Positions 48,001 to 54,000 of a stretch of DNA of 64,000 nt are shown in pieces. The position numbers were made by a program. The number at the start of each line of letters is the position of its first letter. Position 1 is the stretch's first letter. Source of the DNA: Pecten maximus (lineage: Eukaryota); the NCBI RefSeq assembly GCF_902652985.1, contig NC_047015.1, positions 34,410,001-34,474,000 of the forward strand. The letters run 5' to 3'.

Positions 48001-51000
48001 TCCTTCTTAACAATCACATCATTGATTGATATTTATTGGTTCTATGTACGACTGATCATTTCTCTGCTTTTCCTTCTTTCCTCATTTCCTCTTAATAATC
48101 ACAAAGAAAACCTACATATGAAATCAAAGAAAGATTGTTATCCAAATCAAAACAGAATAGACACAACGAAGCACAAAGAGGAACCTATATGTCTACAAGT
48201 CTGAGAAATATCCCTACATTACTTTTCAAGGAACCTATATGTCTACAAGTCTGAGAAATATCCCTACATTACTTTTCAAGGAACCTATATGTCTACAAGT
48301 CTGAGAAATATCCCTACATTACTTTTCAAGGAACCTATATGTCTACAAGTCTGAGAAATATCCCTACATTACTTTTCAAGGAACCTATATGTCTACAAGT
48401 CTGAGAAATATCCCTACATTACTTTTCAAGGAACCTATATGTCTACAAGTCTGAGAAATATCCCTACATTACTTTTCAAGAAAAAGCAGCAATAACAAAC
48501 TTGAATTGTCAAAATCCAAGATGGCCATTTGTCGGCCATTGTGGCACGCTTAGGAACCAAGGGAAAGCTATATGTGAAGTTTGTGAAATATCCTTTCAGT
48601 ACAATGTACAGAAATATTGATTACGAACTTCAGTTGTCAAAATCCAAGATGGTTGCCTGTCGGTCATATTGTTTTCCCCAGTCAGACTCAAAATTGAATG
48701 GGTACAACTCGGGACCAAGGAGAACCTACATGTGATGTTTGAGGGATTCCAAAAAGTGAATGTAAAAATATATGTTAACAAAGAAAGAAAGAAAGAAAGA
48801 AAGAGAGAATGAAATGACGAAGGTAACACGATTTGCTGTTTATAAGAAAGTATACTAGAAGTTCTACAAACAAGTTCTACCTATGATCTTATAGCTTGAT
48901 ATTGGTAAGTTTGAAAGATGACGAAAAGTTGAATATCGTCTTTAGTTTTGCATTATATCCGTCAATTAACGTAACAACACGTTATGTTATACCGTTAGAA
49001 AATTTTAATATTCACAGTTTAAAACCTGTTTTCTCCCATCAAATAAGTACATACTATCGGAAGTCCTCATCACCAACGTTATAAAAGCAATACAATATAG
49101 TAAAGTGTATCAAAATAAAGTTTGCCACGCCCCATTCCGTAACATAACCAGATAGGGTCCATCTAGTCAGATGGAAGTTGACATACGAGTTACATAAACA
49201 ACAAAATAACAAGGACGATTTCTTCAAAATAAATTAGAATGTAGTAAAATATACAATTTGTGTCTATATACAAATGTAGGTCTATATATTAAACGAGAGG
49301 CATGCTTTATTTTAAAGAAAAATATAACGTTTTAATAATACATTGATTAAGTTTCCTTAGAAACTGATTTAACACGCCTTGAAACTATAGATACACGTAT
49401 TTCATTTTGAATAAAAAAAATCCAGAAAGAGGAAAGAGTAAAATAGTTTTGTAGGAGTTAGTTCCTCTGTCCTGGATGATATCACACGAGGGTTTGTTTT
49501 TAAGAAAAATAATGTATCAAAATAGCATATTGATTGACGCTTGTTTCATTTTGATTAAAAAATAGTTAATTTTCATGGAGAGGAAATCGAAGTAAAGTTT
49601 CGTAGGAGGAGTAACTCCCTCTGCCTTGGATGGTAAGTCGGTCGTTGTAAAGGTATGCTGTGGCATAGGAATCGGATTCCATACTTTCGACAGTTCCCGG
49701 AAACGTCACGTGAAGGATACCGGAAGTATCGACACTACTTCCGCCCTTGTGATCATGACCGGCCAAGTAGCAAACGACACACCCACTGAACTCGGTCACG
49801 ACGTCCATGGCATCAGTACAATTCAATAATAAATCCATGTTGTCTGCACTTTGTTCAAATATAGGACAATGACCTGGAATATCAAATAAACAAATAAACT
49901 ATTTGTGTCTTCACAGCTCACACATGTATGTAGGTATGGTTTAGAGGTCAATGAAAATACAATTTTGTAATACAGTTTATTACGGTATTTGAACTTTATC
50001 GCCCAATTGGAAATAAATATTATGAAGATGTGCACTAAAATTATCATTTAAATAATTATGTCGTGATGGGACCATCCATTATGTCTTTTTGAATTCATCA
50101 ACATTCCTTAGCCTAAACGAGGAAATTCCCAAACTTAAAATTTTCTGCATTGGTGAAACTTGCACCTGCTATTTACGTTGTCTCGAGGCCGTTGTAAGCT
50201 GAAGATTCTGATGGCGCATCTTGTACCTGGTAGTGTGGTTCCGGTTGTGTTGTGTATCAAATTAGTCGAATACTAGCAATTGGGGTCGCTGATGAATACC
50301 TGTGTTTACATTTTTACTTACCCATAACAATAACATTCTCTCTGTTTGATGTAGCCTCTCGGAGGTGTTCCTTTAGCCATTCTAGTTGTGACACGGATAA
50401 GGCACCATTCAACTTTAGAAAACGACGACATTTTCCATGAAGTCCATCCGGATCGTTCAAATTCTCCTTAGGGTTGTTCCCCTTTATTATCGCCTCGGCT
50501 TCTTTATACTCAGATGAGTCTTCCGGTAACCCTAGCATGCTTATTTCATAACAGTTCAGCACGACAACTTTCAACTTACGGTGTATGTTGATTGAGTAAT
50601 AAGATTTTCCTTTAGGACATTCACATTTGGGCATGTTACCGCTAAATAAAGTGGAGCGCATGAGTTCTTCTTGTGTGAAGTTATACAGTTCATGATTTCC
50701 CCACGTGTGGTATATCGGCCCCGGAAATGCTTTGAGTACCTCCAAAATCGTAGTTAAGGCACCTTCGGAAGCGTTCTCCTCTTTGTTAAATCCATCAATG
50801 ACATCACCCAGTTGAAGGACACAATCGACTTTTTCAGCTTTCCAGTCCGTGATTGCCCGCTGTAGCAAGGTCAATGCCTTTCGGTAAAATCTCAAACGTG
50901 TTTTCCGGAAGTTGTATCTATCTTCTATGTCAGCGTACTGGACATCTGCAATTATTCCCAGTTTACACACTACTTCCTTCCCCCGGATCAACTCGGTATT

Positions 51001-54000
51001 TCCGTTACAATCCATCTTGGTAACGATACCTGAAATTAGTGCGTCAGTAACTTATGATTATCATATATATATTACTATTTATATTATTTTTCTCTCGGTA
51101 CAACTACGACAGGAAATTCAAATCTATATATGATACATTGTGCTAATAAATAGATATATAACTTAGCAACACAAATGACGTATTTGAGAAATCAACATGC
51201 ATTACGAAATTGTATACAAATGATAATTAAGTCACTATGGAAATTGTTACCAAGTCCCTGTGTCCTGTTTGACGTCATAATGAACTTAAGGAGAAGACTT
51301 TTTACTTAAAAATGTGACGATGTATCATGTATACTATGCTCAAATTCAAGTTCATTTATTACTTTGAGTCTTACGACTCATCAGTGTAAACATATGATAT
51401 ACAGTATATTTACATATATACAAAATGTTAAATTGGCCACAGGAGAATGAACAAAGCAATAATATAATATAATAGTAACATCAATCCATATTATTATTAC
51501 AATATATATATATATATCTCATGCTTGTGATCGGCACTTATTTGCCGCTAACAGATATTTCCCAAGATTACACAAGTCTTTAACATTATTTGTATTAAGT
51601 AATTGAGTAAGCTTATATACACTTGGATTATTTCTATAATAATATTTTAAATACTTCTGTCTTAAATCAGAATACCTAGTACAAACTAAAACAAAATGAA
51701 ATTCGACTTCTATATCATTAAGATTACATAGAGTACAAACTCTTTTACTTCTATCAATGCCAACATATCGCCCAGATTCAATATTCAACTTGTGAGCTGA
51801 CAGTCTGAGCCGAGCAATTTCTTTCGTATAGCTGATATTAACTGATTTTGTTAGATACGATTGTAATAGAATTTTATCATTTACTTCCCTGTAAAGCAAA
51901 CCTTTCGACATATCTATAATAGCACTATATCCATTTTGATTAAAAATGTCAAATAATCTTTCCTTAATTATTGCAAAAGTAAAATCGTTTCCATTCTGGG
52001 CGTCCCAAATATAACCTAAGCCTAAGCGATTCAAATCATCTTTGATTTCACAGACCCATTGGTCCTTAAATAGGAGCATATTTTCATAACACGATTTCAA
52101 TATACAATTTTCAGTATTGAGCAATTTAAACCAATATCTAAAAATTCTAAGTTTCCTTGTTATGTACATGGATAACGGCCTAATTCGAAATATAAAATCA
52201 TATTTGGAGTAGATTTGCGCACACCTAACAACCTTTTACAAAAATTGACATGAAGTTTTTCGATATCATAGCCTTTATGGAATCTCCATATTTCTGAACC
52301 ATAATTGACTATGCTACTGACATATGTATCAAACACTGCTATTTGAGTCTCAATATTAAAATACTGTTTCTTACATACCCTCATTAATGCAAATAATGCT
52401 TTTCGACCTTGTTCAGATATTTTTTTCTGTGTTTGTTTAAATTTTCCATTATAATTCAATAAAACTCTAGATAGTTGAATTCATTCACTATCTCTAAAAC
52501 ACACCCATCATATTTCCAATTTTCATTATCTTTCAATTTCCCCCCATTTCTAAAAACAACAATCTTTGTCTTGGAAGTGTTTACAGTTAGGCCCCACTTG
52601 GTAGTGTAATTAAGCAGGGAGTCTATAGCATTTTTATCTTCTATGTCAGCGTACTGGACATCTGCAATTATTCCCAGTTTACACACTACTTCCTTCCCCC
52701 GGATCAACTCGGTATTTCCGTTACAATCCATCTTGGTAACGATACCTGAAATTAGTGCGTCAGTAACTTATGATTATCATATATATATTACTATTTATAT
52801 TATTTTTCTCTCGGCACAACTACGACAGGAAATTCAAATCTATATCTTCGGATCACCAACACAGAGTGTATATGATACATTGTGCTAATAAATAGATATA
52901 TAACTTAGCAACACAAATGACGTATTTGAGAAATCAATATGCATTACGAAATTGTATACAAATGATAATTAAGTCACTATGGAAATTGGTACCAAGGCCC
53001 TGTGTCTTGTTTGACGTCATAATGAACTTAAGGAGAAGACTTTTTACTTAAAAATGTGACGATGTATCATGTATACTATGCAGATATGATAGGCGTTCGT
53101 TTAATACATTATTGCGGGACAGCATACTTTGATGAAGTTGTCGACATCTGATTATTAAAAAGAATGTTGACGACTGGTAATTACTAGGTCCTACATATTG
53201 CCTGCACATGGACTCTTGCAAGTCTATACATACGGGTATTCATTAGATATACACTGTACATGCACACTGCAAGTCAGTCTAATTATAGTACATGATCGAC
53301 ACGTTGTATGTTATAATCAAAACATTTGTGCCCTGATACACATACTATGTACAAGTTTAAATAACGTTTGGTTTCACCTAGGCTCTGTTCCGTCAGGTAA
53401 CCACATTAATATACTTAATGTATTACTTCAATACATTGTACACGTCACATGTTTAAGTACCTACTCTAATACTGTATTGTACCCCTACCTGTGTTGATCT
53501 GTTAATCTAGTGTATGACCTCTCTCTCCTTCTACATGTAGATAACGTAGGGTAGTTTATCTGTCGATATGACAACCTCGGCAAACAAGTATCATACTTGA
53601 ACTTGGATTTCGTCACCAATTGAAGAATTAAACAGGCTGTAATAACTTTGTCAATATTGTCACTGTAACTCGGTCGGGGTGGAAACCCAGAACGGGAGGT
53701 AACTCTAACACAAAATACACACGGAAACAATTCGTAACCGGATCTGGGTACGGATGAATAACACATGAGCTTTATGTACACATTACACACACGTGCTGTT
53801 GTCTCGTTCCCGATACACAGGCATGGTGCTCGTAAATCAATGCCCCCGGTTTGTACTTAGTATACTTAATTATTCATGAGAAAGATATATTAAACCTATA
53901 AATAATATACTGAAACAATATGGTTGCTAATTTGCTGTGTTTTTCTAACGTGATCACTGAGCAGGAATAGGTTTACTACGTGATCGAGCACCCCGATAAG

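What the first reader, a model, noticed from the sequence alone, without database searches (positions are those of the whole stretch)
50919..53081. LINE insertion flanked by a 421/447-bp duplication creates a decoy start exon and an in-frame ADPRM-LINE chimera
Seen: the LINE fragment (51340-52634) sits exactly between two direct copies (50919-51339 and 52635-53081) containing the ADPRM-A acceptor, ATG and 32 codons. The upstream copy joins the LINE ORF in frame, and the LINE is sense-oriented with its own AATAAA. Established: non-LTR TSDs are normally under about 30 bp. Inference: a giant target-site duplication. Transcripts meet the decoy acceptor (52746) first and would end in the LINE, so intact ADPRM-A needs the second acceptor (51030): a new alternative-splicing switch or gene trap. 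The about 5 substitutions and 26-bp indel between copies suggest age, templating from the other allele, or a haplotype-merge artefact.
Basis: partly seen in the sequence, partly recalled or inferred. Interest (0 to 1): 0.7.

Follow-up and report, generated by a model that had tools for sequence, protein, structure and literature searches.

The report
LINE insertion with 421/447-bp flanking duplication
A truncated jumping gene (LINE) landed in the start of a scallop enzyme gene and copied about 430 bases of its target on both sides, leaving a spare, dead-end copy of the gene's first coding piece; this is an unusually long but already known type of insertion scar.

Summary
Copy A (50919-51339, 421 bp) and copy B (52635-53081, 447 bp) are direct repeats. 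They differ by 5 substitutions and one 26-bp indel. They abut a 1295-bp insert (51340-52634) with no spare bases.

The insert is the 5'-truncated 3' part of an APE-type non-LTR retrotransposon, sense to the gene. It carries two frameshifts, a complete ORF end, a 3' UTR with one AATAAA and no poly(A) tail.

The window is Pecten maximus, not human. The gene is a RefSeq-annotated ADPRM-like gene whose 333-aa protein starts in copy A.

Best reading (confidence 0.7): a real target-primed insertion with a very long target-site duplication. Long TSDs are documented for human L1 in cultured cells, Dualen in Chlamydomonas and R9 in rotifers. It is therefore a new member of a known kind.

The in-frame 91-codon ADPRM-LINE ORF exists. 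The "splicing switch / gene trap" idea has no RNA evidence here. An assembly artefact is unlikely but cannot be excluded without reads. Interest is modest.

The parts
52635..53081 (-). Copy B of the duplication (447 bp). It lies upstream in the gene's sense and is contiguous with the original upstream flank. It holds about 335 bp of upstream/intron-like sequence, acceptor-like TTTCAG|GT (first exon base 52745), ATG 52731-52729 and 32 ADPRM codons.
52843..52868 (.). 26-bp segment present only in copy B, bounded by a 3-bp TAT repeat. It is unique in the window, so a deletion in copy A is the more likely origin (inference).
52459..52731 (-). Chimeric ORF of 91 codons: 32 ADPRM codons, then 59 codons from the LINE, ended by a stop (52458-52456) that follows the first LINE frameshift.
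51340..52634 (-). 5'-truncated LINE fragment (1295 bp). Three colinear reading-frame pieces (52459-52635, 52163-52480, 51522-52235) are separated by two frameshifts. The natural stop is at 51521-51519, the 3' UTR is 51340-51518, and there is no poly(A) tail.
51355..51360 (-). The only AATAAA on the minus strand between 51300 and 53100, 15 nt before the LINE 3' end.
50919..51339 (-). Copy A of the duplication (421 bp), contiguous with the rest of the first coding exon. Acceptor-like site with first exon base 51029; ATG 51015-51013.
50322..51029 (-). ADPRM-A first coding exon. Coding runs from 51015; donor G|GTAAGT with GT at 50321-50320. 100% identical to residues 1-232 of RefSeq P0005. Metallophos domain.
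49566..49873 (-). ADPRM-A last coding exon, including the stop. Matches P0005 residues 232-333.
53489..53850 (-). Candidate (weak) 5' UTR exon/promoter area. It holds the best-scoring donor-like site (CAG|GTAGGG, last exon base 53489), preceded by a CpG-richer patch (13-15 CpG per 300 bp). Not verified.

Best explanation
A 5'-truncated copy of a multi-copy Pecten maximus LINE (APE endonuclease plus reverse transcriptase type) inserted by target-primed reverse transcription into the 5' end of the ADPRM-like gene 'A'.

Inferred mechanism: the first nick was on the window's + strand after 51339 (equivalent to 53081). The second-strand break lay about 420-450 bp away, inside codon 33 of the first coding exon. 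Filling in the long staggered ends duplicated the target. The result is upstream flank - copy B - LINE - copy A - rest of exon.

Shown:
- Copy A keeps the gene intact, and it is the start used by the RefSeq protein.
- Copy B plus the LINE is a dead-end partial exon with a 91-codon chimeric ORF. That ORF covers only 14 residues of the metallophosphoesterase domain and cannot be an active enzyme.

Inferred: after insertion the copies drifted apart (5 substitutions, a 26-bp deletion in copy A), and the LINE either acquired or arrived with two 1-bp frameshifts.

Consequence, inferred and unproven: if transcription starts upstream of 53081, two identical acceptors compete. Use of the first would give a truncated or nonsense transcript, lowering ADPRM-A output rather than providing a regulated switch.
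For: Structure:
- The repeats abut the insert at both ends with no extra bases. No short TSD is nested inside...AGATA before the insert versus GCATA... after it.

Identity of the insert:
- Its three frame pieces align colinearly to residues 69-124, 126-224 and 218-437 of P0001, which carries an RVT_1 domain.
- They are 94-98% identical over pieces A and B, and 90% including one 11-residue gap over piece C, to P0253. P0253 is a Pecten maximus protein on another chromosome-sized contig and reads straight through both frameshift sites.
- Of 8 long relatives scanned (P0004 and 7), all 8 have RVT_1 and 3 also have Exo_endo_phos.
- P0211 matches solved LINE-1 ORF2p and R2 reverse transcriptases at E about 1e-24.
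- 10051 cluster representatives match at E<=0.001. Among the best 150 listed, the long proteins match at their extreme C-terminus, so the element's coding 3' end is complete.

The insert's LINE homology starts at residue 33-36 of the chimera, that is, at the junction.

Protein-level empty site: orthologues in Mizuhopecten, Ylistrum and Argopecten (82-84% identical) read straight through the junction.

Precedent, from passages read:
- L1 TSDs over 100 bp occur in under 10% of HeLa events and reach 5.3 kb in NER-deficient cells. The authors note that exons can be duplicated (PMC5223499).
- Dualen-4b has a median 900-bp flanking duplication, and R9 a 126-bp one (PMC9977147).
- 'Extremely long TSDs' accompany 5'-truncated L1 (PMC2912911).
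- Small tandem duplications occur at L1 insertion sites (PMC11702581).
- The model that the position of second-strand cleavage sets TSD length (PMC2666801).

There are no N bases in the window.
Against: - No reads, no second allele and no DNA of other scallops could be examined, so physical linkage of both copies is not shown.
- The divergence of the copies (5/421 = 1.2% plus an indel) is close to the heterozygosity reported for this individual (1.71%, PMC7191990). It fits an allelic origin of one copy as well as age.
- The fragment itself gives no Pfam hit, because it lies C-terminal to the RT core. Its LINE identity rests on homology to RT-bearing proteins.
- There is no poly(A) or simple-repeat tail, and no other copy in the window to define the family's true 3' end.
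- The 3' UTR fold is not better than shuffles (z = -1.05).
- The LINE clade was not determined.
- The functional part has no RNA evidence.
Confidence: 0.7

Rival explanations
1. Assembly artefact. The two copies are the two haplotypes of one locus, heterozygous for the LINE, and were laid in tandem by the assembler (a false heterotype duplication).
For: - The genome was assembled from PacBio Sequel continuous long reads with wtdbg2, then Arrow and freebayes polishing. The word 'purge' does not occur in the paper's text, and heterozygosity was 1.71% (PMC7191990, passages).
- The copies differ by 1.2% plus a 26-bp indel, which is allele-like.
- False duplications that create false exon gains are documented (PMC9516828, passages).
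- The two 1-bp frameshifts in the LINE could be residual long-read errors.
Against: - Both junctions are base-exact: the end of copy B to the LINE 5' end, and the LINE 3' end to the start of copy A. A simple heterozygous insertion provides only one of these two junctions next to that flank, so the other would have to be invented without read support (inference).
- There is no gap between the copies (no N), whereas gaps between the pair are a listed hallmark of false duplications.
- No other duplication of this kind occurs in the 64 kb.
Confidence: 0.1
2. The insertion is real, but the second copy was not made by simple fill-in of staggered nicks. It was copied from another template while a LINE-associated break was repaired. 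Candidate templates are the homologous chromosome, the sister chromatid, or the unspliced ADPRM-A transcript reached by a template switch of the reverse transcriptase. The differences between the copies would then be allelic and date from the event.
For: - The differences between copies are of allelic size.
- Copy B contains intron-like as well as exon sequence in one piece. This is compatible with DNA or with an unspliced RNA template.
- 5'-truncated insertions show varied processing of the reciprocal end, including templated insertions and small duplications (PMC11702581, passages).
- One base (A at 50919/52635) is shared between target and LINE at the 5' junction. This is minimal microhomology.
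Against: - It needs an extra step for the same end product.
- Nothing in the sequence distinguishes it from a long TSD followed by drift.
- One base of microhomology is what chance gives.
Confidence: 0.12
3. An older tandem duplication of the 421-447-bp segment existed first, and the LINE later inserted exactly at the boundary between the two copies.
For: - Tandem duplication is common in bivalve genomes (general statement in PMC7191990).
- The window is rich in tandem arrays.
Against: - It requires the LINE to hit the one junction position. It also requires the LINE to lack any TSD of its own: the flanks ...AGATA and GCATA... do not repeat.
- It needs two events where one suffices.
Confidence: 0.03
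4. This rival concerns the consequence only and is compatible with the structural explanation. The gene's promoter and short 5' exon lie inside the duplicated segment. Copy A would then keep its own start, there would be no competition between acceptors, and the insertion would be close to neutral. Copy B would at most drive a separate dead-end transcript.
For: - In the paralogue ADPRM-B a TATA-like motif, a GTAAGT donor and the acceptor before the ATG all lie within about 300 bp of the ATG. The duplication reaches 309-335 bp upstream of the acceptor.
- Both copies hold a TGACGTCA palindrome. Reading it as a CRE-like site is recalled knowledge, not tested.
- The annotated protein is intact.
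Against: - The crude donor scan found no donor scoring 6 or more inside the duplicated segment. The best candidate lies upstream, at 53489, next to a CpG-richer patch.
- The upstream regions of genes A and B do not align, so the analogy is weak.
Confidence: 0.25

Closest known systems
Human L1 insertions with large target-site duplications (over 100 bp, up to 5.3 kb) recovered in cultured cells
   Same: - A 5'-truncated LINE flanked directly by a long direct duplication of the target.
- Explained by a distant second-strand break.
- The authors explicitly note that exons can be duplicated in this way (PMC5223499, passages; PMC2912911).
   Different: - Those are de novo events in HeLa or repair-deficient cell lines with poly(A) tails.
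- Here the event is in a reference germline genome of a mollusc. The family is not L1 (clade undetermined), there is no poly(A) tail, and the copies show 1.2% divergence.
Dualen-4b_cRei LINE of Chlamydomonas reinhardtii (median 900-bp flanking duplications) and R9 LINEs of bdelloid rotifers (126-bp TSD)
   Same: Non-LTR elements whose insertions are flanked by duplications far longer than 30 bp (PMC9977147, passage).
   Different: - In those families long duplications are a habit of the family: more than half of Dualen-4b insertions, and site-specific R9.
- Here a single insertion is seen and the habit of the family is unknown.
- Dualen has two endonucleases. Relatives of this element show only the APE type.
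Small tandem duplications and other target alterations at L1 insertion sites in experimental L1 expression
   Same: 5'-truncated insertions carry a broad range of target-site alterations, attributed to processing of the reciprocal end (PMC11702581, passages).
   Different: Those are somatic, experimental human cell models. Duplication sizes were not read in the passages seen.
False heterotype duplications in genome assemblies
   Same: Near-identical neighbouring copies with allele-like divergence that create false exon gains (PMC9516828, passages).
   Different: - There is no gap between the copies.
- A defined transposon fills the interval exactly.
- Read depth, k-mers and linked reads could not be checked.

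Membership tests
APE-type non-LTR retrotransposon (LINE) | Reverse-transcriptase domain of the non-LTR type | tested here: inconclusive
   The fragment itself has no Pfam hit, because it starts C-terminal to the RT core. Its pieces align colinearly to the region that follows RVT_1 in P0001-P0004, and all 8 long relatives scanned have RVT_1. P0211 matches L1 ORF2p and R2 structures.
APE-type non-LTR retrotransposon (LINE) | Apurinic-type endonuclease N-terminal to the RT in full-length members | tested here: met
   Exo_endo_phos was found in 3 of 8 long relatives scanned: P0004, P0128 and P0211. The precomputed domains of P0257 and P0258 also list PF03372. The domain is absent from the fragment itself, which is 5'-truncated.
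APE-type non-LTR retrotransposon (LINE) | Multi-copy in the host genome | tested here: met
   P0253 from another Pecten maximus contig (46.3 Mb versus 60.1 Mb) is 90-98% identical to the three pieces. There is no second copy inside the window.
APE-type non-LTR retrotransposon (LINE) | 3' tail (poly(A) or short simple repeat) at the element's end | tested here: not met
   The insert ends ...GAACTTGAATTTGA directly against the target, with no A-run. Many LINE clades lack poly(A) (recalled), so this does not exclude membership.
Target-site duplication made by target-primed reverse transcription | Direct repeats of target sequence abutting both ends of the element, in the same orientation, with original flanks continuing outward | tested here: met
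   Copy A continues into the exon. Copy B continues into the unique upstream flank.
Target-site duplication made by target-primed reverse transcription | Usual length (a few to about 30 bp) | tested here: not met
   421/447 bp. This is within the documented range of exceptional cases.
Target-site duplication made by target-primed reverse transcription | An empty site with one copy of the target in another allele or species | not testable with these tools
   No eukaryotic DNA collection was on hand. Only protein-level support exists: orthologues in three scallop genera read through the junction.
ADPRM (manganese-dependent ADP-ribose/CDP-alcohol diphosphatase) | Calcineurin-like metallophosphoesterase domain and orthology to named ADPRM proteins | tested here: met
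   Metallophos in exon 1 of genes A and B. Exon 1 is 100% identical to the RefSeq ADPRM-like protein P0005, and exon 2 matches residues 232-333. Enzyme activity was not tested.
Gene trap / alternative 3' splice-site switch by a sense intronic LINE | Transcripts that splice into the decoy exon and end or are degraded there | not testable with these tools
   No RNA data. The acceptor sequences are identical for 69 nt upstream and 111 nt downstream. One AATAAA is present. No annotated chimeric protein of 161 aa or more was found.

The most novel reading that the evidence does not exclude
This scallop LINE family may habitually make target-site duplications of hundreds of bases, as Dualen does in Chlamydomonas. 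That would make it a recurrent source of duplicated promoters, splice sites and partial exons in a bivalve genome noted for its many duplicated genes. The ADPRM-A locus would then be one visible case in which such a duplication created two competing, identical start exons.
Probability: 0.1. Interest if true: 0.55.

Novelty: new member of a known kind. Interest (0 to 1): 0.3.

Why it matters
If real, this is a natural, germline example in a mollusc of a LINE insertion whose very long target duplication copied a splice acceptor, a start codon and 32 codons. Until now this has mainly been documented in cultured human cells and in algal mutation-accumulation lines.

It shows one way in which retrotransposition can duplicate part of an exon and build a chimeric reading frame in a single step. 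It also gives a simple locus for asking how a cell chooses between two identical acceptors.

It does not open a new class of mechanism. Its effect on the gene is unknown and may be nil.

Tried and rejected
- Pfam on the three LINE pieces and on the chimera gave 0 families of 4 queries. This is explained by the fragment lying beyond the RT core.
- I looked for other copies of the LINE, of the duplicated segment and of the 26-bp segment inside the window with blastn and tblastn. Only self-hits came back, so the family's true 3' end could not be defined.
- I tried the paralogue ADPRM-B as an empty-site comparator. The upstream regions do not align meaningfully.
- I searched for an annotated chimeric protein, or for the 'isoform X1' implied by the name of P0005. 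Neither was seen among the hits.
The protein atlas did not hold the sequences. Accessions, cluster members and automatic names therefore stayed unseen.
- Folding the LINE 3' UTR gave z = -1.05, not distinctive.
- The sigma-70 promoter/terminator scan is a bacterial consensus and says nothing about a scallop promoter, so I disregarded it.
- Rfam on the whole window gave 0 matches.
- The donor scan used an approximate weight matrix written from general knowledge. It is a ranking aid only.
- Cryptic donors in copy B/LINE at 52598 and 52505 would join out of frame to the exon starting at 51029 (my arithmetic coordinates). An in-frame cassette isoform was therefore rejected.
- Two literature hits (10.1101/522623 and PMC8934628, passages) matched the phrase only as 'N bp-long TSDs' or in a reference title. 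They were not used.
- The LINE clade (CR1/L2/other) was not determined because no labelled reference set was available.
- Spliced model: the two ADPRM-A exons and the three LINE pieces were searched and compared one at a time. The joined sequence was never built or searched.

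
Full report
**Source and scope.**
The window has no N, is 35.8% G+C and has a CpG observed/expected ratio of 0.61. The first coding exon in the finding is 100% identical to a RefSeq protein named 'manganese-dependent ADP-ribose/CDP-alcohol diphosphatase-like isoform X2 [Pecten maximus]' (P0005, 333 aa, contig of 60,076,705 bp). I therefore take the window for king scallop, not human. 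Spliced models were handled exon by exon. The joined sequence was never built or searched.

**The observation.**
- The repeat finder, a pairwise alignment and a base-by-base walk agree. Copy A is 50919-51339 (421 bp) and copy B is 52635-53081 (447 bp).
- They differ by 5 substitutions and one 26-bp segment found only in copy B (52843-52868, bounded by a TAT repeat and unique in the window).
- The identical stretch is 180 bp (50919-51098). It covers 69 nt of upstream sequence, the acceptor-like TTTCAG|GT, 14 nt of leader, the ATG and 32 codons. One search's '100%' for a 211-bp block is rounding.
- All differences lie in non-coding sequence, but with five substitutions this is not significant (about 0.06, my arithmetic).
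- In a self-comparison of the whole window this is the only dispersed near-identical direct repeat outside the tandem arrays.

**The insert.**
- Between the copies lie exactly 1295 bp (51340-52634). On the minus strand there are three open pieces (52459-52635, 52163-52480, 51522-52235).
- Pfam sees nothing in them. They align colinearly to residues 69-124, 126-224 and 218-437 of P0001, a 441-aa protein with an RVT_1 domain.
- A full scan of 1.84 billion cluster representatives found 10051 relatives at E<=0.001. Among the 150 listed, the long proteins match at their extreme C-terminus.
- Of 8 long relatives scanned with Pfam, all 8 have RVT_1 and 3 also have the apurinic-type endonuclease domain.
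- One of them matches solved LINE-1 ORF2p and R2 reverse transcriptases at about 1e-24.
- A Pecten maximus protein from another chromosome-sized contig (P0253, LOC117331881) is 98%, 94% and 90% identical to the three pieces. The last figure includes an 11-residue gap. P0253 reads through both places where the window's copy changes frame.
- The insert is therefore the 3' part of a multi-copy scallop LINE. It is 5'-truncated just after the RT core and has two 1-bp frameshifts, the natural stop codon and a 179-bp 3' UTR. It has one AATAAA 15 nt from the end and no poly(A) tail.
- Its 3' UTR does not fold better than shuffles. The clade was not determined.

**The gene.**
- ADPRM-A has two coding exons on the minus strand (51015-50322 and 49873-49566). 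These match P0005 over its whole length when compared exon by exon.
- The protein starts at the ATG of copy A.
- Orthologues in Mizuhopecten, Ylistrum and Argopecten (82-84% identical) begin with the same residues and read straight through the position where copy B runs into the LINE. This is a protein-level empty site.
- A paralogue, ADPRM-B (P0013), lies upstream in the window. Its upstream region does not align with that of A, so it cannot serve as a DNA-level empty site.

**The chimera.**
Copy B's ATG opens a 91-codon frame: 32 ADPRM codons, then 59 LINE codons, then a stop that follows the first LINE frameshift. LINE homology begins at residue 33-36, that is, at the junction. The Metallophos match in the real protein spans residues 19-133, so the chimera holds only 14 residues of the domain and cannot be an active enzyme (inference). 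An in-frame fusion has a one-in-three chance.

**What made it.**
- Both original flanks are intact: the upstream flank is contiguous with copy B, and copy A is contiguous with the exon.
- The repeats touch the element with no filler and no nested short TSD.
- That is the anatomy of a target-site duplication whose two strand breaks were about 420-450 bp apart.
- The model that the position of second-strand cleavage sets TSD length is standard (PMC2666801, passages).
- Long TSDs are documented:
  - over 100 bp in under 10% of L1 events in HeLa;
  - 5 bp to 5.3 kb (median 1495 bp) in excision-repair-deficient cells, with the authors remarking that exons can be duplicated (PMC5223499, passages);
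  - 'extremely long TSDs' with 5'-truncated L1 (PMC2912911, passages);
  - small tandem duplications at L1 sites (PMC11702581, passages);
  - a median of 900 bp for Dualen-4b in Chlamydomonas and 126 bp for R9 in rotifers (PMC9977147, passage).
- I give this reading 0.7.

**Rivals.**
- Haplotype-merge artefact.
  - It deserves attention because the genome was built from continuous long reads with wtdbg2 from an individual with 1.71% heterozygosity. The paper's text does not contain the word 'purge' (PMC7191990, passages). The copies differ by an allele-like 1.2%.
  - Against it: a heterozygous simple insertion supplies only one of the two observed junctions next to each flank, so one base-exact junction would have to be invented. 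There is also no gap between the copies, whereas gaps are a hallmark of false duplications (PMC9516828, passages).
  - Depth, k-mers and linked reads could not be checked. Confidence 0.1.
- The second copy was copied from the homologue, the sister chromatid or an unspliced transcript during repair. This would explain the allele-like differences, but nothing in the sequence separates it from drift. Confidence 0.12.
- A pre-existing tandem duplication hit exactly at its junction needs two events and a coincidence. Confidence 0.03.

**Consequence.**
- A crude donor scan puts the best candidate at 53489 (CAG|GTAGGG), just downstream of a CpG-richer patch at 53550-53850. It finds no donor scoring 6 or more inside the duplicated segment. 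That is weak support.
- In ADPRM-B, however, a TATA-like motif, a GTAAGT donor and the acceptor all lie within about 300 bp of the ATG. The start of gene A could therefore lie inside the duplicated segment, in which case copy A keeps its own start and nothing competes.
- Cryptic donors at 52598 and 52505 would join out of frame, so no in-frame cassette isoform is expected.
- No chimeric protein of 161 aa or more is in the protein collection.
- No RNA data were available. The functional claim stays open.

**Verdict.**
[quoted passage not shown] Interest is 0.3.

Noticed in passing
window 59315-61603 (array); exon end at 61583: The 44-bp x 52 tandem array that fills the intron of the paralogue ADPRM-B starts 20 nt inside its first coding exon. 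Each unit repeats the exon's last bases plus the donor (ATGG|GTAAGG), so the intron holds about 51 extra donor-like sites. 44 is not a multiple of 3, so using a later copy would shift the frame. This is a second 'decoy splice site' situation in the same gene pair, made by minisatellite expansion.
   Followed up: partly
window 61545-62252 and 58785-59114 (minus strand): A tandem paralogue, ADPRM-B (RefSeq-named protein P0013, 325 aa), lies upstream of ADPRM-A. It is about 70% identical to A. A third Pecten maximus paralogue (P0009, 379 aa) is not in the window.
   Followed up: partly
window 42691-43570 (minus strand): A myo-inositol oxygenase gene is read from two overlapping frames: Pfam MIOX profile positions 2-150 and 145-249. 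This means either a very short intron or a frameshift.
   Followed up: no
window 54759-55110 and 55709-56060: An inverted repeat of about 355 bp at 91.9% identity lies between the two ADPRM genes, enclosing about 600 bp with high CpG. It may be a transposon with terminal inverted repeats.
   Followed up: no
window 57185-58322; 63466-63959; 48179-48480: Further tandem arrays: 27 bp x 42 (98% matches), 70 bp x 7 (98%) and 50 bp x 6 (100% identical).
   Followed up: no
window 9917-11850 (plus strand): Long open frames encode a repetitive, lysine- and proline-rich sequence (repeated KDPFTK...IPGILGSELSQTKRHDHDELK units) with no Pfam match.
   Followed up: no
P0005 (name given by its source): The RefSeq name says 'isoform X2', which implies an isoform X1 for ADPRM-A. 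It did not appear among the hits, so its structure and any relation to copy B are unknown.
   Followed up: partly
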